Origin: a virus
Taxonomy: Duplodnaviria; Heunggongvirae; Uroviricota; Caudoviricetes
Length of the DNA stretch: 22,011 nt
Virus record (IMG/VR): IMGVR_UViG_2609459830_000015
Strand: one strand, 5' to 3'
The translations under genes and the position numbers were made by a program. This document shows, one piece after another, positions 472 through 20,485 of this stretch (positions are counted from its first letter, which is position 1; the number at the start of each line of letters is the position of its first letter). The notes below the pieces were generated by a model that searched no databases, was not told where the DNA came from, and worked only from the letters and a program-made list of their open reading frames with translations.

Positions 472-2190
472 ATGATTTTTAGGGATAGCTTGAGAGTATT
501 ACCTTATGGTCGAGTAGATAATGATTTCTTCCAGATAGAAGAAAGACGTTCATGGAATGCAGGGCGATATTATTGGTCTAATAGAAGGATTTTTGGTTAT
601 ATTGGAATTACTCAATCCAGTAATAAAGAGCTGAAAGATAAGTCGGGGAGAGAGGGATTCATAAGAAACCAGGCTGCAAGAGAACTGAAAACTATTATAT
701 CTAATTTGTTAACTGAACTTGCTGATAGATTTTTTGGTTCACGTTCTGATGACCGTAAAGAGCTTTTAGAACAAGTTAAGCGTGAAAAAGAGTTAAGAAA
801 ATCTGCTCAACAACAAGCTCGAAAATCAACACAAAAAAGTTTTTCAGAAGCTTTGAAGAATCAGACACCAGTTCTTGATGCTTCCTTGGAGGCTGTTAAA
901 AGGCTGAAAACTAAGCTTGATAAAACTGATGGTTCGTTAGATTTAAACTATCTTAAAATTATAGACAGTGATCTTACAAACTTAGATGCGTTGCGCAGTG
1001 AAATTAAAACGCCTATCAAACCTCCAAAACTTGGAATGTATGAAGAGAAATATAGAGACTACAGAGATAAATTTAATGAGTTCTCTGCGTATATTCTACA
1101 AATGAAGTTAGCAATTAATAAACTTGATTCTGAATTAAATAAACTTGAGCCTTCATTGTCAGCGAAAAATCACCTTGAAAAAAATCAAGGTATTATTAAT
1201 TCTAAACTAACTAAGTTTAATAACACGATAGAGGAGAAGATACATTCTCTTTTAAAAAAATGGGCCGATGAAATAAAGGTTGATCGAAGTGATTATTATG
1301 CTAAAACTATATCAGTTGTTGATTCAATAGATAATGATTCACAAATTGAAAATGTGTTTAATTTGCTCGATAGTTTATATGTTGAGTCAGTTGATACCCT
1401 AACTTTCAAATATCAATCAATAATAAAAGGTCTCGATAGATTATTTGAAGGTATAAACTTAGATTCAGCATTCTCATTATCTGAAGAAGAACGCTCATAT
1501 TTTGAAGAAAAAGCTAAAAGTTTAAACGCGCTTGCACAGTTAGGTATTAGTGTTGAGATAATATCTCATGAACTTGAAGAAATGGATTCTATGGTAACCA
1601 GAGGACTAAACTCTCTTCCTACTTCTGTAAAAGAACACCCTGGTTTTTCATTGGCGTTAAATGCTCACAGATCGCTTACTCAACAAATACGTTTCTTATC
1701 ACCTTTGAAAATATCAGGTTATCAATCCAGGCAGAGAATAACTGGAAAAAATATCATGGATTATGTCCTGAAGTTCTTTGGGGAGCGTTTCGAACGGCAA
1801 CGAATAACTATTGAATTTAGTGAAGAGTTTAAGCAAATCGCAATAACAGATATACCATCAAGGATCTATCCTGTTTTTACTAATATTATCAACAATGCAA
1901 TGTATTGGGTCAGTCTGTCAAATAATAGGCTCATAAAGATTGGTTTTGTGAATTCTTTGGTTATCATAGCAAATTCTGGTCCGGCAATTGATACCGATGA
2001 TATCCCGCGACTATTTGAACTATTTTATAGCAAAAGAGCAAATGGACATGGGGTAGGTCTGTATCTATGTCGAGAAAACCTTGCTGTTGCACATCATAAA
2101 ATATGGTATTCAGAACCTGATGAAGGCGATAACTATTTAATAAAAGATGGCGCTAATTTTGTGATCCAGTTCAATGGAGTGGAGTTCTAA
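472..2190 (+). CDS. Histidine kinase core (coiled-coil region, HisKA-like H-box, HATPase_c); probably 5'-truncated by the IS3 insertion
   Basis: 572-aa ORF. C-terminal third shows an H-box (LGISVEIISHELEEMDSMV), N-box (VFTNIINNAMYW), G1 box (IANSGPAIDTDDIPRLFELFYS) and G2 box (GHGVGLYLCRENLAV). The N-terminal ~250 aa are K/E/L-rich, coiled-coil-like. The same frame is open upstream from 346 (immediately after the IS3 end) to the first ATG at 472, with no stop. Confidence 0.8.
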   Translation: MIFRDSLRVLPYGRVDNDFFQIEERRSWNAGRYYWSNRRIFGYIGITQSSNKELKDKSGREGFIRNQAARELKTIISNLLTELADRFFGSRSDDRKELLEQVKREKELRKSAQQQARKSTQKSFSEALKNQTPVLDASLEAVKRLKTKLDKTDGSLDLNYLKIIDSDLTNLDALRSEIKTPIKPPKLGMYEEKYRDYRDKFNEFSAYILQMKLAINKLDSELNKLEPSLSAKNHLEKNQGIINSKLTKFNNTIEEKIHSLLKKWADEIKVDRSDYYAKTISVVDSIDNDSQIENVFNLLDSLYVESVDTLTFKYQSIIKGLDRLFEGINLDSAFSLSEEERSYFEEKAKSLNALAQLGISVEIISHELEEMDSMVTRGLNSLPTSVKEHPGFSLALNAHRSLTQQIRFLSPLKISGYQSRQRITGKNIMDYVLKFFGERFERQRITIEFSEEFKQIAITDIPSRIYPVFTNIINNAMYWVSLSNNRLIKIGFVNSLVIIANSGPAIDTDDIPRLFELFYSKRANGHGVGLYLCRENLAVAHHKIWYSEPDEGDNYLIKDGANFVIQFNGVEF

Positions 2191-2191
2191 T

Positions 2192-3940
2192 ATGACAGTG
2201 GCAAATTATAATTCTCTTGTCCAGAAAACTTTCTGCGAAAATGCAATTCGTTCCGTTGTCATGATTGATGACGATTTTCTGACGTATTCTGAATCAATCA
2301 GGGCGTTGAATAACGAAGTTGATTTAGACTACAACAAAATTGACTCATCTAAACGAGCCGCTACTCTTGAGAGCTTTTTTCAATCTAAAAATATGATTTG
2401 TGATGTTGACAATGGTTCTGTTAATTTCGATGTGGATCGGATTAGAAAATCAGATCTTATTATTGTAGATTATCATCTTGATAATAATGCACCTGATAAA
2501 ACACTTAAACTATTACAAGATTTGAAAGACTCCGATCATTTAAATATGATTGTAATATATACTAGAGAGAATTTAGAAACGGTTTGGATGCAGATATCAT
2601 CGACTCTCAAAGGTGCTCTGGATATCAACAGCTTGATCATTGACTACGATAATGAAGATGTCCAAAGTTATTGGGAAGACGTTGTATTACCGAACTTAAA
2701 TGATAATGGTAATAAAGCTCTCACAAGAGATGAAACAATAGCCTATATTAAAGACAGTAAGCCTTGTAGAAGAATTAAAAGATTAATACATGATGATGCT
2801 GTGTTGGAGGATCAAAAGGATAAAAACTTCATTGCAAAAATGATTGCAGAATATGCTGTGTCTAGAAATGCAATTATTTCTAGCAACACATCTGGCAATG
2901 TCATTCGGGGTGATGAAAGCGGAGTAAAATGGATTCAATGTGGTAATATCTTTGTCTCCCTATTTCATAAGGTTCAAGATGATCATGAAAACGATGGAGA
3001 TAGAATTTGGCAAACTCTCAATGATTCTCTCATTGAATGGAAACCATCTTATTATCAGTTAATAAAATCTGAAATTCAGAATGCAATCGAAGCTGAGGCT
3101 TTATCTTTTGTAAATCATTTGGCTAACGATCATTACGGTCAAGCTGCGTGGTTAAATGAGATATTAAAATCAGACTCGCCTGATATTAGATGTAGAAATA
3201 TTGACTTTGTATTTGGTAATTTATCAGAAGAGCTTTATCAAAGACTTAAAAATAATAATACGCTGGATGAATTTATCAAAAGTGTTTTTGATAGCTATTC
3301 AAATGAATACGCTAACAGCGGAGTTGCTGCATTGCTCCAATATTGCTCTTCAAAAATGGATCTGCCATCAAATAATGATACTTATCACGAAATGTATCAT
3401 GCTTTAAATATGAATTTGTCTTCAAAGAATTTTGAAGATGGTCATATTTCTACTGGCACTATTTTCTTTGATACAGAGTCGAACAAATGGTATTTATGTG
3501 TATCTGCGGCATGTGATTTGGTTCCTACTCAGGGTAACGACCCTCACCATGTAAGATTAAGTCCGCACAGGCTCATTAAAGTTCTGGAGCTTTTTAACGC
3601 CAGTCAGAGTAAAGCATTGCCATTTGCTGAACATTCGAAATATATATATGTAATGCATAAAAATCAAAGAAAATATCTCTCTATTTTCGAAGGGGATAAA
3701 ACGCTTCCTGTTGTTGATTATATGGTGGTGTTGAATCATGGAACAACAGTTGATGGCGAAGAAAAAAATATTATTTCTGCCGTGTTTTTAAGTAATATGG
3801 ATGGCAACGTGCAAAATGTTCCTGTCCGACTCAAACTTAAATCTCAACTGAGAACTGGTTATGCAGAAAGATATCAGGCTATAGCGTCTCAGTATAGCTC
3901 AAGGATTGGTGTGGATTATGTATCAATGATGCTACCATAA
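2192..3940 (+). CDS. Receiver (REC)-like domain protein with a large C-terminal domain of unknown function (putative phosphorylation-controlled effector)
   Basis: N-terminus resembles a response-regulator receiver: acidic beta1 (VVMIDDD), candidate phospho-acceptor Asp at the end of beta3 (DLIIVDYHLDNN), Thr after beta4 (MIVIYT), then a Lys. The remaining ~430 aa have no motif I recognise. Start taken as ATG 2192 (GGAG at 2181-2184, 7 nt upstream; 1 nt after the kinase stop); an in-frame ATG at 2174 is the alternative. Confidence 0.7.
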   Translation: MTVANYNSLVQKTFCENAIRSVVMIDDDFLTYSESIRALNNEVDLDYNKIDSSKRAATLESFFQSKNMICDVDNGSVNFDVDRIRKSDLIIVDYHLDNNAPDKTLKLLQDLKDSDHLNMIVIYTRENLETVWMQISSTLKGALDINSLIIDYDNEDVQSYWEDVVLPNLNDNGNKALTRDETIAYIKDSKPCRRIKRLIHDDAVLEDQKDKNFIAKMIAEYAVSRNAIISSNTSGNVIRGDESGVKWIQCGNIFVSLFHKVQDDHENDGDRIWQTLNDSLIEWKPSYYQLIKSEIQNAIEAEALSFVNHLANDHYGQAAWLNEILKSDSPDIRCRNIDFVFGNLSEELYQRLKNNNTLDEFIKSVFDSYSNEYANSGVAALLQYCSSKMDLPSNNDTYHEMYHALNMNLSSKNFEDGHISTGTIFFDTESNKWYLCVSAACDLVPTQGNDPHHVRLSPHRLIKVLELFNASQSKALPFAEHSKYIYVMHKNQRKYLSIFEGDKTLPVVDYMVVLNHGTTVDGEEKNIISAVFLSNMDGNVQNVPVRLKLKSQLRTGYAERYQAIASQYSSRIGVDYVSMMLP

Positions 3941-4011
3941 TTATTATATTTTAGGCGTGGTGATTTTTTTTCGCCATGCCTATTTTATATTTATCATCAC
4001 AATGATGTTGT

Positions 4012-4428
4012 TTATTTTTGTTTAAGTCTTCTAAGCTTCATGCATTCTAATGAGAATAATAATAGAGTTGTGCTGTATATAAAGCCAGAGTTAGTTAATA
4101 ACTTTAAATTTAATGCTTCAGGATTTTCACTGAGAAAGTGAAAGGCATAAACTAAGTATACAGCTAAAGTAGCCGTTCCAATTGTTGGTCCAATATCGCC
4201 TTGATCATGAGGTTCAAGGTTTACATTGAACTTGAAGATTAGCCATTCAAATCCCCAAGTAAAAAAAACAACTAATATCATGGCTGCGAATAATTTCGCG
4301 ATGTTATCTGCTGATGGATTCATCAGAACAGATTGTTTCTGAAAAAATTCACAAAGTGAGAGTCCGAAAAAAATAAAAAAAAGTGGTCTGGAACTAAATT
4401 TTTCAAAAACTTTGAATAGGGTTTCCAT
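4012..4428 (-). CDS. Small integral membrane protein (about 4 predicted TM helices), unknown function
   Basis: 138-aa ORF with hydrophobic stretches (PLFFIFFGLSLCEFF; LFAAMILVVFFTWGFEWLIF; IGTATLAVYLVYAFHFL; GFIYSTTLLLFSL). AT-rich like the kinase/REC cargo. Starts 38 bp downstream of the integrase stop on the same strand. Confidence 0.55.
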   Translation of the reverse strand: METLFKVFEKFSSRPLFFIFFGLSLCEFFQKQSVLMNPSADNIAKLFAAMILVVFFTWGFEWLIFKFNVNLEPHDQGDIGPTIGTATLAVYLVYAFHFLSENPEALNLKLLTNSGFIYSTTLLLFSLECMKLRRLKQK

Positions 4429-4466: not shown

Positions 4467-5738
4467 TTAGGCTACCAGAGCATTTGATCTTTGAGCTTGA
4501 ACGTAATCACTCCACCATTGCATCAAACTCTGTCGCTCTATCAGATATTCTGCACGATTGTATGCTGCGATAATTTCATCTTTTTTCGAGTGGGCAAGCG
4601 CTGCCTCAAGAACTTCAGCTCTGAATTTACCAGACTCCTCTGCCGCTGTTCGTGCAATAGAACGCATACCGTGAGCTACAAGCTCGCCTCCGAACCCCAT
4701 TCGGATGATAGCTGCGTTGGCTGTTTGTTCATGCATATGATTAAGAGGCGCTTTTATGCTGGGGAAAACCCATTCTCTATGCCCACTTATTGATTTCATT
4801 AATTCAAGGATGCGCAAAGCTTCTTTACTCAAAGGAACTTTGTGAAGCTTTTTCATTTTCATGAAATCAGCAGGAATGTTCCAAATGCTGTTGGTTGTAT
4901 CAATATCAGACCACCTTGCGCGAACGGCTTCACCCGGACGAACCCATGTCAACAATTGCCATTCAATTAGCATACGTGTTTCCAACCGGATTGACGCATT
5001 CGTCAAAGATTCCATAAACCTTGGCAATTCGCTTGGGGGAAGGGCAGGCATATTTTGCTTTTTTGGTTTACTGAATCTTTGACCAAGGTTGTCAGCCGGG
5101 TTGAACTCAATAAGTTCTTCAGTAGCTGCCCACCGGAAGATTTCATTCAGACGTGAAATGATACGGCGTAGAGTTTCCAATACGCCTCGTTGCTCAATAG
5201 GATCAAGGTGTTGTTTTAAGAGCTTAGGTCGGATCTCATTGATAGGGACATTACCCAGACCGGGAAAGACATTTCTCTCTAAGCTGCGCCAGATGTCTGC
5301 TGCATGGTCTTGTGAGATACCTGATGTCTTTACCTTCTCATCTAACCATTTCCGCGCTACGGCTTGGAGAGTGTGCTCAGTAGCACTCTTTAATGCCTTC
5401 GCCTTATCGTTGTTATGGATTTGGGGATCAACACCATTTGCCAGAAAGGAGAGATATTCATCACGTAAGGCTCTGGCTCTTGCAAGGGTAAGGTGAGGAT
5501 ATGTCCCAAGGCTCATTTTGGTTCTTTTCTTGCTCACTGGTACTGCATACCTGAAATACCAATTTTTCTTGCCTCCTTTCGCCAAAGGAGCGATTCGTAG
5601 AATCAGACCATCACCGTCAAACAAGTTGATTTCTTTATCGGCTGGCTTGGTGCTTTTGATTTCAGTGTCAGTGAGCTTCTTAGCGATTTTTGCCATTTTG
5701 GGACCCTCGGTTTTTGGACCCTTCTTAGTGGGTCCCAT
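4467..5738 (-). CDS. int: P4-type tyrosine integrase (IntA/CP4-57-like family)
   Basis: 423-aa ORF. N-terminal arm-binding region typical of P4-family integrases (KLTDTEIKSTKPADKEINLFDGDGLILRI...KNWYFRY) and a C-terminal catalytic region (...AHGMRSIARTAAEESG...EAALAHSKKDEIIAAYNRAEY) with the R...HxxR...Y pattern. The true start is probably the internal Met (MAKIAKKLTD, about 5696). Confidence 0.9.
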   Translation of the reverse strand: MGPTKKGPKTEGPKMAKIAKKLTDTEIKSTKPADKEINLFDGDGLILRIAPLAKGGKKNWYFRYAVPVSKKRTKMSLGTYPHLTLARARALRDEYLSFLANGVDPQIHNNDKAKALKSATEHTLQAVARKWLDEKVKTSGISQDHAADIWRSLERNVFPGLGNVPINEIRPKLLKQHLDPIEQRGVLETLRRIISRLNEIFRWAATEELIEFNPADNLGQRFSKPKKQNMPALPPSELPRFMESLTNASIRLETRMLIEWQLLTWVRPGEAVRARWSDIDTTNSIWNIPADFMKMKKLHKVPLSKEALRILELMKSISGHREWVFPSIKAPLNHMHEQTANAAIIRMGFGGELVAHGMRSIARTAAEESGKFRAEVLEAALAHSKKDEIIAAYNRAEYLIERQSLMQWWSDYVQAQRSNALVA

Positions 5739-5861
5739 TCAGGGTGCCATAACTCGTAGTTCTCAGCAATTCTCACTGGACGACAATAGACGTAAAAAAG
5801 CCCGCAGAGCTTGTGCTGTGTGGGCTTAGTAGACTTCATTGAACTTCAAACAACTAAAAAG

Positions 5862-5897
5862 TGGTGGGCTGGCGGGAGTTGAACCCGTATCCGAAAA
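5862..5897 (-). other. att-site core: degenerate copy of the tmRNA (ssrA) 3' end, not a complete gene
   Basis: Minus strand reads ...CGGGTTCAACTCCCGCCAGC-CCACCA, matching the 3' terminus of E. coli tmRNA as I recall it (GCGGGTTCAACTCCCGCCAGCTCCACCA) with one base missing and two substitutions just upstream; similarity decays after about 36 nt and no ssrA 5' sequence is present at 5898-6230. Same orientation as, and 124 bp upstream of, the P4-type integrase. Confidence 0.6.
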
Positions 5898-6154
5898 ATT
5901 CTTAACCAATTGAATATTAATGATTTTTCTAATTTAAAATACCTCACGTGCATTTTACGTGCATATTGTAGTACCTCTAACGTCCTGATTCTGTCCAACA
6001 TTTTGAAGTGTTTAGGCGCCACTGGGGCGGTGATTAGCGCTGTTTTGTGCTGTTCATAGCACTTCAAGACTATTCAATTCAGAGCAATCGTTGAAGAATT
6101 ACCCGTAAGGTAATATCATACTATTTAGGTAACTGCGGTTATCACCATCAAGGG

Positions 6155-6188
6155 CCACTGATGACGCTGTTATCATCAGTGGCTTTTT
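6155..6188 (+). terminator. Rho-independent terminator-like hairpin (plus strand)
   Basis: Perfect 10-bp stem CCACTGATGA / TCATCAGTGG (6155-6164 / 6173-6182) with an 8-nt loop, followed by CTTTTTGT. No T-run on the opposite strand, so it is unidirectional. Confidence 0.6.
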
Positions 6189-6230
6189 GTACCTTCACTG
6201 CACAGCCAGTGAAGTGTTGAGGAGACTAGC

Positions 6231-6572
6231 ATGAGAACAGTAGCGAGAAGATCGATACAGACGATTGAGCGTCGGACTCAACTCGTCAGTTCTTTTGTTG
6301 ACTCAAACACAGCAAACGAGTTCTTCGTGAGAAGACTGAGTGATCGTGTCTCCCCGGCACGTCAGCTGTTTATTGTGACATTGAACAATGAGGTTCGTGA
6401 CGGTGACGTGATCCCGTTCGCTGAGATCGCCATGAACAAAGAAAAATTGCGCTATGTTGTGAAGCCAGCAGATCAGTATCCTCAGTATGTAAGCAGTAAT
6501 CTGCTGAAGAAAATTGAAGCGGCAATTGCTCTATACATGCAGAAGAACTACAGGGAAATTAACTACCATTAA
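6231..6572 (+). CDS. Hypothetical protein (113 aa), first gene of a cargo cassette between att and the prophage integrase
   Basis: ORF preceded by GAGGAG (6219-6224) 6 nt before the ATG; no recognisable motif. An 8-bp-stem hairpin (CTTCACTG...CAGTGAAG, 6193-6214) sits in the leader. Confidence 0.6.
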   Translation: MRTVARRSIQTIERRTQLVSSFVDSNTANEFFVRRLSDRVSPARQLFIVTLNNEVRDGDVIPFAEIAMNKEKLRYVVKPADQYPQYVSSNLLKKIEAAIALYMQKNYREINYH

Positions 6573-6583
6573 AAGGTTGCTGA

Positions 6584-7351
6584 ATGGCTCCTGCGTTAAT
6601 ACCTTCATATAACAAGGACTTGAACATTACGCCATTTGGCGAAAAACGTCTTATTGAGTCATTCTATTTTTTCACTGCCGAGGCTGGCTTACTGAGGGCT
6701 GATGAGTACATTGTCAGTTCTGGTGAGTTTCAGTACTACTTGGATGTGTATCAACTGGGATGTTCCACCGACGACTTTTTTTTAGACTATGGCAGTGACC
6801 TTCTTGATTCGAAGGTTCCAATGCAGGATCTGGTCAATACCCTCTTGGGTCTTGATATGGTAGACGATAACAAAACGATAAGAATAGGTCGTATACAGTT
6901 CAACGACTTTAATTTTATCGAAGAGAACGGTCAGATGATGACCGGAAAGCAAGTGAAAAGCGCTGTTATCGCACAGGATTTCCAATCAGCAGGTTTGGCG
7001 CGTGAGATCTATAAAATGCTTGCGCGAAAGCATGAGTTTCTCATCTGCGATAACATTCAAAGTATTGCCGGTGGTGCTCTTTGGGCTAGTAGCATCATTC
7101 GAATTGCCGAGGTACGGATCTACAATTCACGCACGAAGAAATTTATGGACATACTTGGTCCAGGTGCGCGTGGCGTTTCAGGTACTTTGCCATGGAGTGC
7201 GAATGATCTGTCTGTAGATGAGATTGTTCGCTGGGGTCGTGCGTATGATGATGAAAACTGTTGTCGTCACATTGTACATGTTATCTGTAAGGACCGACTC
7301 ATTGACGATCAATTTCATGATTATGTTTCGATAGGTGGCGCGACAGAATAA
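6584..7351 (+). CDS. Hypothetical protein (255 aa), second gene of the att-int cargo cassette
   Basis: ORF starts 11 bp after the upstream gene's stop and is followed by a terminator; no recognisable catalytic motif. Confidence 0.65.
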   Translation: MAPALIPSYNKDLNITPFGEKRLIESFYFFTAEAGLLRADEYIVSSGEFQYYLDVYQLGCSTDDFFLDYGSDLLDSKVPMQDLVNTLLGLDMVDDNKTIRIGRIQFNDFNFIEENGQMMTGKQVKSAVIAQDFQSAGLAREIYKMLARKHEFLICDNIQSIAGGALWASSIIRIAEVRIYNSRTKKFMDILGPGARGVSGTLPWSANDLSVDEIVRWGRAYDDENCCRHIVHVICKDRLIDDQFHDYVSIGGATE

Positions 7352-7363
7352 CCATCAAAAAGA

Positions 7364-7387
7364 CCCGGCATTTGCCGGGTTTTTTCT
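7364..7387. terminator. Bidirectional rho-independent terminator between convergent genes
   Basis: Hairpin CCCGGC-ATTT-GCCGGG (7364-7379) flanked by an A-run upstream and T-run downstream (aaaaaGACCCGGCATTTGCCGGGtttttt), so it works for the plus-strand cassette and the minus-strand integrase. Confidence 0.6.
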
Positions 7388-7392
7388 TCAAA

Positions 7393-20032: not shown

Positions 20033-20485
20033 TTTGTGGTAAATGGGCGGCTGGTGGGTGTGGTGGTTGTTGCTTTCCCGTTGCTGAAAAAGAAAGCATC
20101 AGGCGATTAGCAGGGTATCAGTTACCCGTTGAAATTTTTAAATACCTCACAATTCAGGCGGTTGACTGTTGTCTGGTTTGCGGGGAGTTTGTTAAAAGAA
20201 ACTGGCATGGTGAATCCCCCTGTGCGGAGGGGCGATCAGCAACCAGGTATATGGGATAATCGCGGATTCAGGTGCTGATACTGAATTCACCGGGAGGCAC
20301 CCGGCACCATGCTTTGCCACAAAAGTGTTGTTTCTGTTTTTCTCAAACTATCATCGTTATCCCTTTATTTCCGGCTGCGCATGGCGTGGCCTTTTTTTTA
20401 CGACCAGCCACTGGCAGATGGCCATCCTGTAATTTGATTCCGGTTCCGGCTTTTTAACTCTGTTCCTGTACACGGGAGAAATTCG

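What the first reader, a model, noticed from the sequence alone, without database searches (positions are those of the whole stretch)
5900..6230. About 300-bp AT-rich non-coding stretch ending in a strong unidirectional terminator: candidate small RNA or regulated leader
No credible ORF lies between the att core and the 113-aa gene, yet the region ends with a perfect 10-bp-stem terminator followed by a T-run (6155-6188) and then a second 8-bp-stem hairpin (6193-6214) just upstream of the ribosome-binding site. I see no good promoter between the terminator and the gene. This suggests either an sRNA ending at 6188, or cassette expression that depends on read-through (attenuation/antitermination). 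The direct repeat ACGTGCAT-TTT-ACGTGCAT at 5946-5964 may be an integrase arm site or a promoter element.
Basis: seen in the sequence. Interest (0 to 1): 0.4.

Follow-up and report, generated by a model that had tools for sequence, protein, structure and literature searches.

The report
Conserved terminator-bearing leader of a prophage cassette
The hairpins are real. They form a promoter-plus-terminator leader that travels with an uncharacterised two-gene phage cargo cassette across many enterobacterial phages, so the cassette most likely makes a short RNA and only a trickle of full-length mRNA. The left third of the flagged stretch is simply the phage attachment-site arm.

Summary
The window is E. 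coli chromosome: a lambdoid prophage inserted beside a ssrA (tmRNA) 3'-end att fragment (5858-5898). The flagged 5900-6230 stretch is two things.

**att arm (5899-~6026).** This is the AT-rich phage att arm, shared by more than 1,000 E. coli prophages. It carries the conserved 11-bp-spaced repeat at 5946-5967, a plausible Int arm site.

**Cassette leader (~6027-6230).** This is the 5' end of a 1.4-kb cargo cassette that cassette-less relatives lack. In order it holds:
- a sigma-70-like promoter (6091-6119) with a palindrome in its spacer
- hairpin 1 (6128-6143)
- an intrinsic terminator (stem 6150-6187, 11 perfect pairs, T-run 6184-6188)
- hairpin 2 (6193-6214)
- the ribosome-binding site, then genes of 113 aa and 255 aa (GNAT-like fold)

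The same layout precedes homologous gene pairs in three genomic contexts. 27 of 33 distinct leaders have a hairpin plus T-run ending 39-53 nt before the ATG, against 1.1% of shuffles, and the stems show compensatory changes. No Rfam family matches.

Best reading: a transcriptional attenuator that yields a roughly 60-nt RNA plus read-through mRNA. No transcript data exist. Whether read-through is regulated, and whether the short RNA acts in trans, is open. Moderately interesting; a new member of a known kind.

The parts
5858..5898 (-). ssrA (tmRNA) 3'-end-like att core fragment (...CGGGTTCAACTCCCGCCAGCCCACCA on the minus strand). Not a complete tmRNA gene.
   Evidence: Matches the annotated ssrA 3' end of other E. 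coli genomes at about 92%. Sub-threshold Rfam tmRNA match at 5873-5887(-), E = 0.003. ARAGORN finds no tmRNA or tRNA in the window.
5899..6026 (.). Phage att arm on the int-proximal side. AT-rich (35% GC) and shared with related ssrA-integrating lambdoid prophages.
   Evidence: 1,182 E. coli genomes match the query. Most match only about window 5700-6008 at 84-95% identity. Homology to the cassette-less relative L002 runs to 6026, and to L003 to 5978. GC values.
5946..5967 (+). Direct repeat ACGTGCATTTT / ACGTGCATATT with 11-bp spacing. Candidate arm-type binding sites for the phage integrase.
   Evidence: Exact 8-mers at 5946 and 5957. GTGCAT-N5-GT(G/A)CAT is kept in the arms of L002, L003 and L007. 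The adjacent integrase is annotated in RefSeq as 'Arm DNA-binding domain-containing protein'. Binding itself is inferred.
6027..7414 (+). Cargo (moron) cassette between the att arm and the 3' end of int. It is absent from cassette-less relatives and replaced by other cargo in others.
   Evidence: BLAST against L002 leaves a gap at 6027-7414. In L002 int follows the arm directly. L003 carries a DUF4760 gene there instead. Only 10 of 5,426 complete E. coli genomes carry this cassette.
6091..6119 (+). Sigma-70-type promoter-like site: -35 TTGAAG (6091-6096), 17-nt spacer, -10 TATCAT (6114-6119). The inferred transcription start is about 6127.
   Evidence: The only promoter-like site in 5600-6700. 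An equivalent site with its -10 ending 105-116 nt before the ATG is present in nearly all leader groups. Activity has not been shown.
6098..6114 (.). Palindrome ATTACC-N5-GGTAAT inside the promoter spacer. Candidate repressor operator.
   Evidence: Read from the sequence. Other leader groups carry a different palindrome at the same place: TATAGC..GCTATA, or TTGCTCA..TGAGCAA. No other copy in the window. Function is inferred.
6128..6143 (+). Hairpin 1 / palindrome GGTAAC-TGCG-GTTATC at the inferred 5' end of the transcript. It could be a 5' stem-loop, a second operator, or both.
   Evidence: Present in the MFE fold. In the 21-sequence alignment, 98% of cells are paired, 2 of 6 pairs show compensatory change, and all one-sided changes are G.U. 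The sequence GATAAC-N3-5-GTTATC is shared by most groups.
6150..6190 (+). Intrinsic terminator: 15-bp stem (11 perfect pairs at 6154-6164/6173-6183), loop 6165-6172, T-run 6184-6188 then GT. The predicted 3' end of a ~60-nt leader RNA is near 6186-6190.
   Evidence: Hairpin dG is -19.9 kcal/mol. It is conserved in position (ending 39-53 nt before the ATG) in 27 of 33 distinct leaders, against 1.1% of shuffles. 95% of cells are paired, with compensatory changes in 4 pairs and many G.U changes.
6193..6214 (+). Hairpin 2 (CTTCACTG-cacagc-CAGTGAAG), ending 4 nt before the ribosome-binding site. Role unknown.
   Evidence: 6 of 8 pairs show compensatory changes in the model-fitted alignment. A hairpin is present in most leader groups but absent in the L030, L052 and L055 groups.
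6219..6224 (+). Shine-Dalgarno GAGGAG of the 113-aa gene.
   Evidence: Read from the sequence. GGAG/GGGG is conserved in all leaders.
6231..6572 (+). 113-aa protein (phrog_2594, unknown function) with an invariant Arg-rich N-terminus, MRTVARRSIQTIERRTQ.
6584..7351 (+). 255-aa protein (phrog_3307), a divergent GNAT-fold protein. Substrate unknown.
7363..7386 (.). Bidirectional terminator-like hairpin ACCCGGCA-ttt-GCCGGGT, flanked by an A-run and a T-run. It lies between the cassette's last stop codon and the int stop codon.
7393..8571 (-). Phage tyrosine integrase. The Xis-like gene (8526-8735) overlaps its start.

Best explanation
Bases ~6027-6230 are the 5' control region of a mobile two-gene phage cargo cassette. 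A sigma-70 promoter (6091-6119), probably under repressor control through the palindromes at 6098-6114 and 6128-6143, starts transcription near 6127. RNA polymerase then meets an intrinsic terminator about 60 nt downstream (stem 6150-6187, U-run 6184-6188). Most transcripts would end there and give a ~60-nt RNA made of a 5' stem-loop, a 6-nt single-stranded linker and the terminator hairpin. The fraction that reads through carries hairpin 2 and the ribosome-binding site and encodes the 113-aa protein and the 255-aa GNAT-like protein. The leader therefore acts as a transcriptional attenuator. It keeps expression of the cassette low in the lysogen and produces a short RNA as a by-product or co-product.

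In the three contexts looked at, the cassette lies downstream of, and co-oriented with, phage late or structural genes. The window context is an exception only in that the late-gene orientation is assumed from lambda's map. Terminator-resistant late transcription could therefore also read into the cassette during lytic growth.

Bases 5899-6026 are unrelated to this. They are the phage att arm, with probable integrase arm-type sites at 5946-5967.

Shown: the structures, their conservation in position, their covariation, and their linkage to the gene pair. Inferred: promoter activity, termination, partial read-through and the repressor sites.
For: - **Structures.** Perfect 11-bp stem plus T-run, unique in the window.
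- **Promoter position.** The only promoter-like site lies upstream of the terminator, with none downstream.
- **Cassette boundaries.** 6027-7414 is missing in the relative L002 and replaced by other cargo in L003.
- **Same leader elsewhere.** 53 loci with the gene pair give 35 distinct leaders. A hairpin plus T-run of dG <= -10 ends 39-53 nt before the ATG in 27 of 33 full-length leaders, against 1.1% of 990 dinucleotide shuffles.
- **Promoter conservation.** A promoter-like site with its -10 ending 105-116 nt before the ATG is present in nearly all groups.
- **Model search.** A covariance model built from 13 leaders finds 10 further loci outside the seed (8 distinct leaders), always on the + strand abutting the ATG.
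- **Covariation.** 92.9% of cells are paired, against 30-52% for slid controls. 12 pairs show compensatory change, against 2-5. The covariation score is 0.244, against 0.05-0.08. One-sided changes are overwhelmingly G.U, as expected for a + strand RNA.
- **Different contexts.** The leader travels with the genes. It sits next to att and int in the window and L007, and after the major tail protein and next to Ant in L009 and L032.
- **Specificity.** A viral-contig scan for hairpin 1 plus the terminator start returns only this cassette and one chance hit inside a coding region.
Against: - No transcript data exist. Promoter activity, termination efficiency and the 3' end are all unmeasured.
- The U-run has only five U before a G, so termination may be weak.
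- One lineage (L008/L024/L025) lacks a U-run, L031 has a poor one, and the most distant homologues (L057-L059, and the SSU5-type phage-plasmids) have a different leader. The terminator is therefore not indispensable to the genes.
- No conserved alternative (antiterminator) pairing was seen in the comparisons made (no systematic search), so nothing here indicates that read-through is conditional.
- The alignment used for pair counts was fitted to the model structure, which favours that structure.
Confidence: 0.7

Rival explanations
1. The main product is a trans-acting small RNA (about 6127-6188: 5' stem-loop, single-stranded ACCAUC linker, terminator with U-tail). It would regulate host or phage mRNAs, or its own read-through mRNA. 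Expression of the downstream genes by read-through would be secondary. This is the IsrK or StxS type of arrangement.
For: The layout of 5' hairpin, linker and terminator with U-tail is typical of enterobacterial sRNAs. Prophage precedents exist in which early termination makes a functional sRNA: IsrK (PMC4825925) and StxS (PMC7547250). Other leader groups have 7-8 U tails. This overlaps with the best explanation and is not exclusive of it.
Against: The linker varies between groups (CACCATCAAG, TTTCCACGAGTA, GAATCAGTAATTC), so no conserved seed is evident. The leader always stays attached to the gene pair and was not found on its own. No target could be identified, and the duplex predictions were uninformative.
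Confidence: 0.2
2. Read-through is regulated. A protein binds hairpin 1, either as RNA or as its DNA palindrome, and switches the terminator or the promoter. The best candidate is the cassette's own 113-aa protein with its invariant Arg-rich N-terminus. This would be autoregulated antitermination or repression.
For: The hairpin 1 sequence GATAAC..GTTATC is conserved far beyond what pairing needs, while the terminator stem and hairpin 2 vary freely. The N-terminus MRT(V/L)ARRS(I/V)QTI..RTQ is nearly invariant at the protein level despite free synonymous change. Palindromes overlap the promoter spacer in every group. GTTATCA recurs 31 nt downstream in the terminator loop in three lineages.
Against: No known RNA- or DNA-binding domain was detected in either protein. 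AF2 gives a GNAT-like sheet, not an RHH, HTH or N-like protein. No conserved antiterminator helix was seen. The spacer palindrome differs between groups while the protein N-terminus does not.
Confidence: 0.15
3. The hairpins belong to the att and integration machinery. They would be either a sib-like retroregulation site for int transcripts running leftward, or recombination-related structure.
For: They lie between att and int. The minus strand folds equally well (-39.2 kcal/mol, z -3.8). In phage lambda, sib lies beyond att (established knowledge).
Against: The same leader precedes the gene pair in loci with no att or int nearby, for example after the major tail protein gene in L009 and L032. 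Related prophages with the same att arm and integrase lack 6027-7414 altogether. G.U substitutions fit a + strand RNA, not a minus-strand one.
Confidence: 0.03
4. Leader-peptide attenuation. The 19-codon uORF (ATG 6161 to TGA 6218-6220) would couple translation to terminator formation.
For: The uORF starts in the 5' arm of the terminator, is preceded by AAGGG, and ends inside the ribosome-binding site. It stays open with a GTG start in the L007 group.
Against: There is no start codon in the L009 group. In L010 it is in frame with the main gene and has no stop. In L033 the frame and length differ. It is therefore not conserved.
Confidence: 0.03

Closest known systems
IsrK locus of Salmonella prophage Gifsy-1 (PMC4825925)
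   Same: A prophage-borne promoter is followed closely by an intrinsic terminator. Terminated transcripts give a short RNA, and read-through transcripts are the mRNA for downstream ORFs whose product is harmful if over-made.
   Different: No sequence or Rfam relationship. In IsrK the short RNA activates translation of the long form in trans through defined alternative structures, and nothing of that kind was shown or seen here. The downstream genes are unrelated (orf45-anrP versus a 113-aa plus GNAT-like pair).
Lambdoid late promoter PR'-tR' and its short transcript (lambda 6S RNA; StxS, PMC7547250)
   Same: A promoter taken to be active in the lysogen, as PR' is, followed by an intrinsic terminator a short way downstream, with the genes beyond it. 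A short RNA is the default product. There is a sequence element in the -35/-10 spacer and a -10-like motif (TATCAC) in the early transcribed region.
   Different: The terminated RNA would be about 60 nt rather than 74-194 nt. No Q-like antiterminator is encoded in the cassette. The spacer element is a palindrome. The window's own late region lies elsewhere: STnc100 at 20176-20348. Q dependence was not testable.
Type III toxin-antitoxin loci (ToxIN, CptIN, TenpIN; criteria in PMC3401426)
   Same: The order promoter, non-coding RNA, terminator that sets the RNA:mRNA ratio, then protein gene. Phage and plasmid association.
   Different: No tandem repeat array (TRF). The proteins are not ToxN-like endoribonucleases and have no PADLOC hit. 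There are two protein genes rather than one.
GNAT-RHH type II toxin-antitoxin modules (TacAT, AtaRT, KacAT)
   Different: The upstream protein is not an RHH antitoxin by AF2 or Pfam. The GNAT protein is 255 aa with an extra N-terminal domain. As far as I know (recalled, not checked), those systems have no leader terminator. Toxicity is untested.
Phage 'morons' (own promoter and terminator, inserted in late operons or next to att; Hendrix-type definition, from established knowledge)
   Same: An autonomous cargo unit with its own promoter and a downstream terminator (7363-7386). It is present or absent between otherwise similar phages and sits at typical moron positions.
   Different: Classical morons have the terminator after the gene. 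This one has an additional conserved terminator between the promoter and the gene.

Membership tests
Intrinsic (Rho-independent) terminator | GC-containing stem-loop immediately followed by a U-run on the transcribed strand | tested here: met
   11 perfect pairs (15 with the extension), dG -19.9 kcal/mol, then TTTTTGT. The minus strand has no T-run.
Intrinsic (Rho-independent) terminator | Structure kept in relatives by compensatory change, at a conserved position | tested here: met
   27 of 33 leaders against 1.1% of shuffles. 95% of cells paired, with 4 pairs changed on both sides and many G.U changes.
Intrinsic (Rho-independent) terminator | RNA 3' ends map to the U-run | not testable with these tools
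   No transcriptome data are available for a strain carrying the cassette.
Any curated RNA family (Rfam 15) | Covariance-model match at or near the gathering score | tested here: not met
   No hit in 5899-6260 apart from chance-level matches (E = 6.2). The only family hit in the window is STnc100 at 20176-20348.
Type III toxin-antitoxin | Tandem array of RNA repeats upstream of the terminator | tested here: not met
   TRF finds nothing in 5880-6260 at score >= 30. There is only a 13-nt imperfect two-copy repeat 31 nt apart. Criterion taken from PMC3401426.
Type III toxin-antitoxin | Terminator between the non-coding RNA and the protein gene, with a promoter upstream | tested here: met
Type III toxin-antitoxin | ToxN/CptN/TenpN-type endoribonuclease toxin | tested here: not met
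   No PADLOC or Pfam match. The folds are GNAT-like.
Riboswitch or alternative-structure attenuator | A conserved antiterminator helix mutually exclusive with the terminator | tested here: inconclusive
   The RNAalifold consensus shows only hairpin 1 and the terminator. By eye, only 5-6-bp competitors exist (GAUAAC with the loop GUUAUC; CAUCA with UGAUG), and they are not conserved across groups.
Leader-peptide attenuator | A conserved short ORF overlapping the terminator | tested here: not met
   The uORF 6161-6220 is open only in close relatives.
Lambdoid PR'-tR' / Q antitermination module | A cognate Q protein and Q-binding element acting at the promoter | not tested
   No Q-like gene lies in the cassette. 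The prophage's Q and late promoter were not compared. The palindromes have no other copy in the window.
GNAT acyltransferase (255-aa protein) | GNAT fold with the R/Q-x-x-G-x-G/A acetyl-CoA motif | tested here: inconclusive
GNAT-RHH type II toxin-antitoxin | Ribbon-helix-helix antitoxin encoded upstream | tested here: not met
Lambda-type att site with integrase arm-type sites | Repeated short motifs in the arm, conserved among phages with related integrases | tested here: met
   GTGCAT-N5-GT(G/A)CAT is kept in four arms. The arm is shared by more than 1,000 E. coli prophages. Int binding itself is not testable here.

The most novel reading that the evidence does not exclude
The ~60-nt terminated leader RNA is a working third component of the cassette. 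It would be an RNA partner, such as an antitoxin, decoy or specificity factor, recognised through hairpin 1 by the invariant Arg-rich N-terminus of the 113-aa protein. Together they would control a GNAT-fold effector. That would be a protein-protein-RNA toxin/defence module of a type not yet described, with the terminator setting the RNA:protein ratio as in type III toxin-antitoxin systems.
Probability: 0.1. Interest if true: 0.7.

Novelty: new member of a known kind. Interest (0 to 1): 0.42.

Why it matters
The work gives a defined, testable control element for an uncharacterised and probably dosage-sensitive phage cargo module. That module (a small protein plus a GNAT-like protein; phrog_2594 and phrog_3307) is spread among phages and phage-plasmids of Escherichia, Atlantibacter, Yersinia, Buttiauxella, Leclercia, Pantoea, Serratia and relatives.

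It adds a comparative, covariation-supported case to the small set of prophage loci where early termination yields both a short RNA and a rationed mRNA (IsrK, StxS).

It also shows that the flagged stretch must be split into an att arm and a cassette leader when such prophage ends are annotated. The motif is absent from Rfam and could be added as a cis-regulatory or sRNA family.

Tried and rejected
- **Rfam.** The gathering-threshold scan of the window and a permissive scan of 5850-6260 gave nothing for the leader.
- **Protein libraries.** Pfam, PADLOC, NCBIfam and PDB sequence searches of both proteins gave no hit.
- **sRNA targets.** RNAduplex of the putative sRNA against its own mRNA gave long non-specific duplexes and was uninformative, so I dropped it.
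- **Leader peptide.** The idea was rejected because the uORF is not conserved.
- **att or sib-like structure.** Rejected for the hairpins because the leader moves with the cassette to contexts without att.
- **Type III toxin-antitoxin.** Rejected because there is no tandem repeat array.
- **13-nt repeat as an insertion footprint.** The repeat TGAAGTGTT(T/G)AGG at 6004 and 6210 is not kept in L007 or L002, so it is probably chance.
- **DnaA box.** A resemblance in TTATCACCA is perfect only in L038. Judged by eye to be chance.
- **Shared regulation with the prophage.** I searched the window for further copies of either palindrome and found none.
- **Literature.** Searches for PhiR12 and for the protein accessions, locus tags and PHROG ids found nothing relevant.
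- **Plain MAFFT alignment of all leaders.** It misaligned the terminator arms between groups, so I used per-sequence folding and a covariance-model alignment instead.
Full report
**Where the window comes from**

The 5700-7400 stretch of the window is 99.8% identical to the E. coli O103:H2 PV16-126 chromosome. From left to right it holds:
- a CP4-57-type island integrase at 4467-5738 (-)
- a 40-nt fragment at 5858-5898 (-) that matches the annotated 3' end of ssrA (tmRNA) in other E. coli genomes at about 92% (sub-threshold Rfam tmRNA match; no complete tmRNA by ARAGORN)
- a lambdoid prophage of the PhiR12 type, whose integrase (7393-8571, -) and Xis-like gene (8526-8735, -) point towards that att fragment

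Two + strand genes of 113 aa and 255 aa lie between att and int.

**Checking the observation**

- The terminator stem is 11 perfect pairs (6154-6164 / 6173-6183) with an 8-nt loop. A/G:U pairs extend it to 6150-6187, followed by TTTTTGT.
- It is the only perfect hairpin of at least 10 bp in the 22-kb window.
- It has a U-run on the + strand only.
- The second hairpin (6193-6200 / 6207-6214) is also exact.
- The 116-nt leader folds at -40 kcal/mol, z = -3.4.

'AT-rich' applies only to the left part. GC is 19% at 5899-5945 and 35% at 5900-6026, but 44-49% over the leader, against 46% for the window.

The promoter scan finds one site in 5600-6700: TTGAAG-17-TATCAT at 6091-6119. It lies upstream of the terminator, and nothing lies between the terminator and the ATG.

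**The stretch is two things**

Of 1,182 E. coli genomes that match 5700-7400, only 10 carry the part to the right of about 6010-6026. The others share only the island end, the att fragment and about 110-130 bp beyond it.
- In strain 'numer 3' (L002) the phage integrase follows this arm directly.
- In UTAK-6 (L003) a different gene (DUF4760) sits there.
- BLAST places the cassette at window 6027-7414 relative to L002.

So 5899-6026 is the phage att arm. The ACGTGCAT repeat (5946 and 5957, 11-bp spacing) lies in that arm and is kept as GTGCAT-N5-GT(G/A)CAT in L002, L003 and the Atlantibacter relative L007. The motif is not enriched elsewhere in the window. With an integrase annotated as carrying an arm DNA-binding domain, arm-type Int sites are the natural reading, by analogy with lambda's P' sites (established knowledge). 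Binding itself is inferred.

**The leader belongs to the cassette and is conserved with it**

The two proteins match PHROG families of unknown function, phrog_2594 and phrog_3307. They have graded homologues at 46-89% identity in Enterobacter, Citrobacter, Yersinia, Pantoea, Serratia, Mixta and others.

Scans of genomes, viral contigs and metagenomes returned 53 loci in which the pair is intact and adjacent. These give 35 distinct 170-nt upstream sequences. Read side by side, they share one layout:
- a -35/-10 promoter with a palindrome in its spacer
- a second palindrome or hairpin (mostly GATAAC-N3-5-GTTATC) just after the -10
- a hairpin with a conserved CCAC...GTGG base followed by a T-run
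- usually a further hairpin
- GGAG, then ATG

Four measurements support this.
- **Position of the terminator.** A hairpin plus T-run with dG <= -10 kcal/mol ends 39-53 nt before the ATG in 27 of 33 full-length leaders, against 1.1% of 990 dinucleotide shuffles.
- **Position of the promoter.** A promoter-like site with its -10 ending 105-116 nt before the ATG recurs in nearly every group, with different hexamers: TTGAAG/TATCAT, TTGATT/TACACT, TTGCTC/TATATT, TTGAAA/TAGTAT, TTGCAG/TACACT.
- **Model search.** A covariance model built from 13 leaders recovered 10 more loci (8 distinct leaders) from three groups outside the seed. All were on the + strand and abutted the ATG.
- **Covariation.** On the resulting 21-sequence alignment, 92.9% of cells are paired, against 30-52% when partners are slid. 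12 pairs carry compensatory changes, against 2-5. The covariation score is 0.244, against 0.05-0.08. At most 1 of 500 shuffles reached the observed value for four of the five measures.

That alignment is fitted to the model, which favours the structure. The per-sequence folds show the same result without any alignment. One-sided changes in the terminator are almost all G.U, which fits an RNA read from the + strand.

**Genomic contexts**

The leader is not tied to att.
- In the window, L007 and about 20 near-identical loci, the cassette lies between the att arm and int.
- In L009 (Yersinia pekkanenii) and L032 it lies after a phage major tail protein gene and next to an Ant anti-repressor gene.
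- In SSU5-type phage-plasmids a roughly 30%-identical pair lies between the lysis genes and parA, with a different terminator-less leader.

This rules out an att- or sib-type role for 6027-6230. It also defines the mobile unit as promoter, leader, two genes and a downstream bidirectional terminator (7363-7386).

In the two contexts where upstream genes could be read, the cassette is co-oriented with upstream late or structural genes. In the window the same would hold after circularisation, if this prophage is organised like lambda. That last point is an inference, because the prophage's right end lies outside the window.

A pattern scan of 2.9 million viral contigs for hairpin 1 plus the start of the terminator returned three copies of this cassette and one chance match inside a coding region. 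The leader was therefore not seen in front of other cargo.

**What the genes are**

Neither protein matches Pfam, PADLOC, NCBIfam or PDB sequences.

*The 255-aa protein.* Several weak lines of evidence point to a divergent GNAT-fold acyltransferase:
- AF2 models are of moderate confidence (pLDDT 75 and 77 for the two proteins).
- It has an R/Q-x-x-G-x-A motif (QSAGLA; family consensus RGAGLA) at the expected strand-helix junction.
- A profile search of 1.84 billion representatives found only 56 relatives. The weakest of these align over the same region to proteins whose Pfam domain there is PF00583.

The substrate is unknown.

**How it most likely works**

I commit to a transcriptional attenuator.
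1. The cassette's own promoter fires.
2. Most polymerases stop at 6184-6190 and release a ~60-nt RNA. This RNA consists of a 5' stem-loop, a short linker and the terminator hairpin.
3. The remainder read through and make the bicistronic mRNA.

This ration would suit a GNAT-type effector that may be harmful in excess. The palindromes over the promoter spacer and at +1 to +17 suggest an added layer of repression.

The structures, their conservation and their linkage to the genes are shown. Promoter activity, termination and partial read-through are inferred.

Three questions remain open:
- Whether read-through is conditional. No conserved antiterminator helix was seen (no systematic search), and the 19-codon uORF overlapping the terminator is not conserved.
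- Whether the short RNA acts in trans.
- Whether hairpin 1 works as RNA, as a DNA operator, or as both. Variable loop length and G.U-only changes favour RNA. Strong sequence conservation favours DNA, as does the fact that in the L035/L052/L054 group the hairpin 1 position carries a second copy of the spacer palindrome.

Some lineages have lost the U-run (L008/L024/L025, L031), and distant homologues use other leaders. The terminator is therefore a frequent feature of the family but not an obligatory one.

**Comparison with known systems**

In function, the nearest cases are prophage loci where early termination yields both a short RNA and a rationed mRNA.
- **IsrK of Gifsy-1.** The terminated RNA activates translation of the read-through form (PMC4825925).
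- **PR'-tR' of Stx phages.** The terminated transcript matures into the sRNA StxS (PMC7547250).

Neither is related in sequence, and no Rfam family matches.

Type III toxin-antitoxin loci share the order promoter, RNA, terminator, protein. However, they require a tandem repeat array and a ToxN-type RNase (PMC3401426). Both were tested here and not met.

GNAT-RHH type II modules share the small-gene-plus-GNAT order and promoter palindromes, but the upstream protein is not an RHH protein.

The cassette fits the general notion of a phage moron, with the unusual addition of a terminator between its promoter and its genes.

**Verdict**

The flagged region has to be split into an att arm and a cassette leader. 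It is a new, unlisted member of a known kind of element. Interest is moderate. It would rise if the short RNA proved to be a functional partner of the two proteins.

Noticed in passing
window 6135-6147 and 6166-6178: GC(G/T)GTTATCA occurs twice, 31 nt apart: once in the 3' arm of hairpin 1 and once in the loop and 3' arm of the terminator. The same duplication is present in the L007 group and in the diverged L011 leader, but not in the L010, L033 or L009 groups. It could mean DNA half-sites on one helix face or an alternative RNA pairing with GAUAAC. Unexplained.
   Followed up: partly
window 6161-6220: A 19-codon uORF (MTLLSSVAFCTFTAQPVKC*) starts in the terminator's 5' arm and ends inside the ribosome-binding site of the 113-aa gene. 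It is open in the closest relatives only.
   Followed up: yes
phage records PV340549-PV340554 (PhiR12_1 to _5); locus L017 354-1117: In the lab-propagated PhiR12 phages and in one viral contig, the 255-aa gene matches in two pieces and is annotated as two hypothetical proteins. It appears to be frameshifted there, while the 113-aa gene is 100% identical.
   Followed up: no
phage record PV340554.1 (PhiR12_5) 1392-3092: This 'phage' record also contains window 5700-5862, which is the start of the neighbouring island's integrase and the ssrA fragment. Either the prophage boundary was drawn too wide or excision was imprecise.
   Followed up: no
window 472-4428: The neighbouring ssrA island carries a 572-aa ATP-binding protein, a 588-aa protein annotated 'response regulator receiver domain' and a 138-aa hydrophobic protein next to its integrase. 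This looks like a candidate defence-type module. It was not examined.
   Followed up: no
window 20176-20348 (+): Full-length match to Rfam STnc100 (108 bits, E = 4e-23), a gammaproteobacterial sRNA family, inside the prophage.
   Followed up: no
L004 (SSU5) 1905-1975 and L005 (PhiR41_1) 1935-1995: The distant (~30% identity) gene pair in SSU5-type phage-plasmids has its own conserved upstream element: CTCGTAGCCTCTAAACC, a small covarying hairpin, then TCGCCGC. It has no terminator.
   Followed up: no
window 7363-7386: A strong bidirectional terminator-like hairpin (ACCCGGCAtttGCCGGGT with an A-run before and a T-run after) lies in the 41-nt gap between the cassette's last stop codon and the convergent int stop codon.
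   Followed up: partly
window 6004-6016 and 6210-6222: A 13-nt direct repeat TGAAGTGTT(T/G)AGG sits at the end of the att arm and just before the ribosome-binding site. It is not kept in L002 or L007, so it is probably chance.
   Followed up: yes
L038 leader (IMGVR_UViG_3300013001_000245), just after hairpin 1: The 3' arm of hairpin 1 plus the linker reads TTATCCACA there, a perfect DnaA-box consensus. The window has TTATCACCA (7 of 9). Judged to be chance.
   Followed up: no
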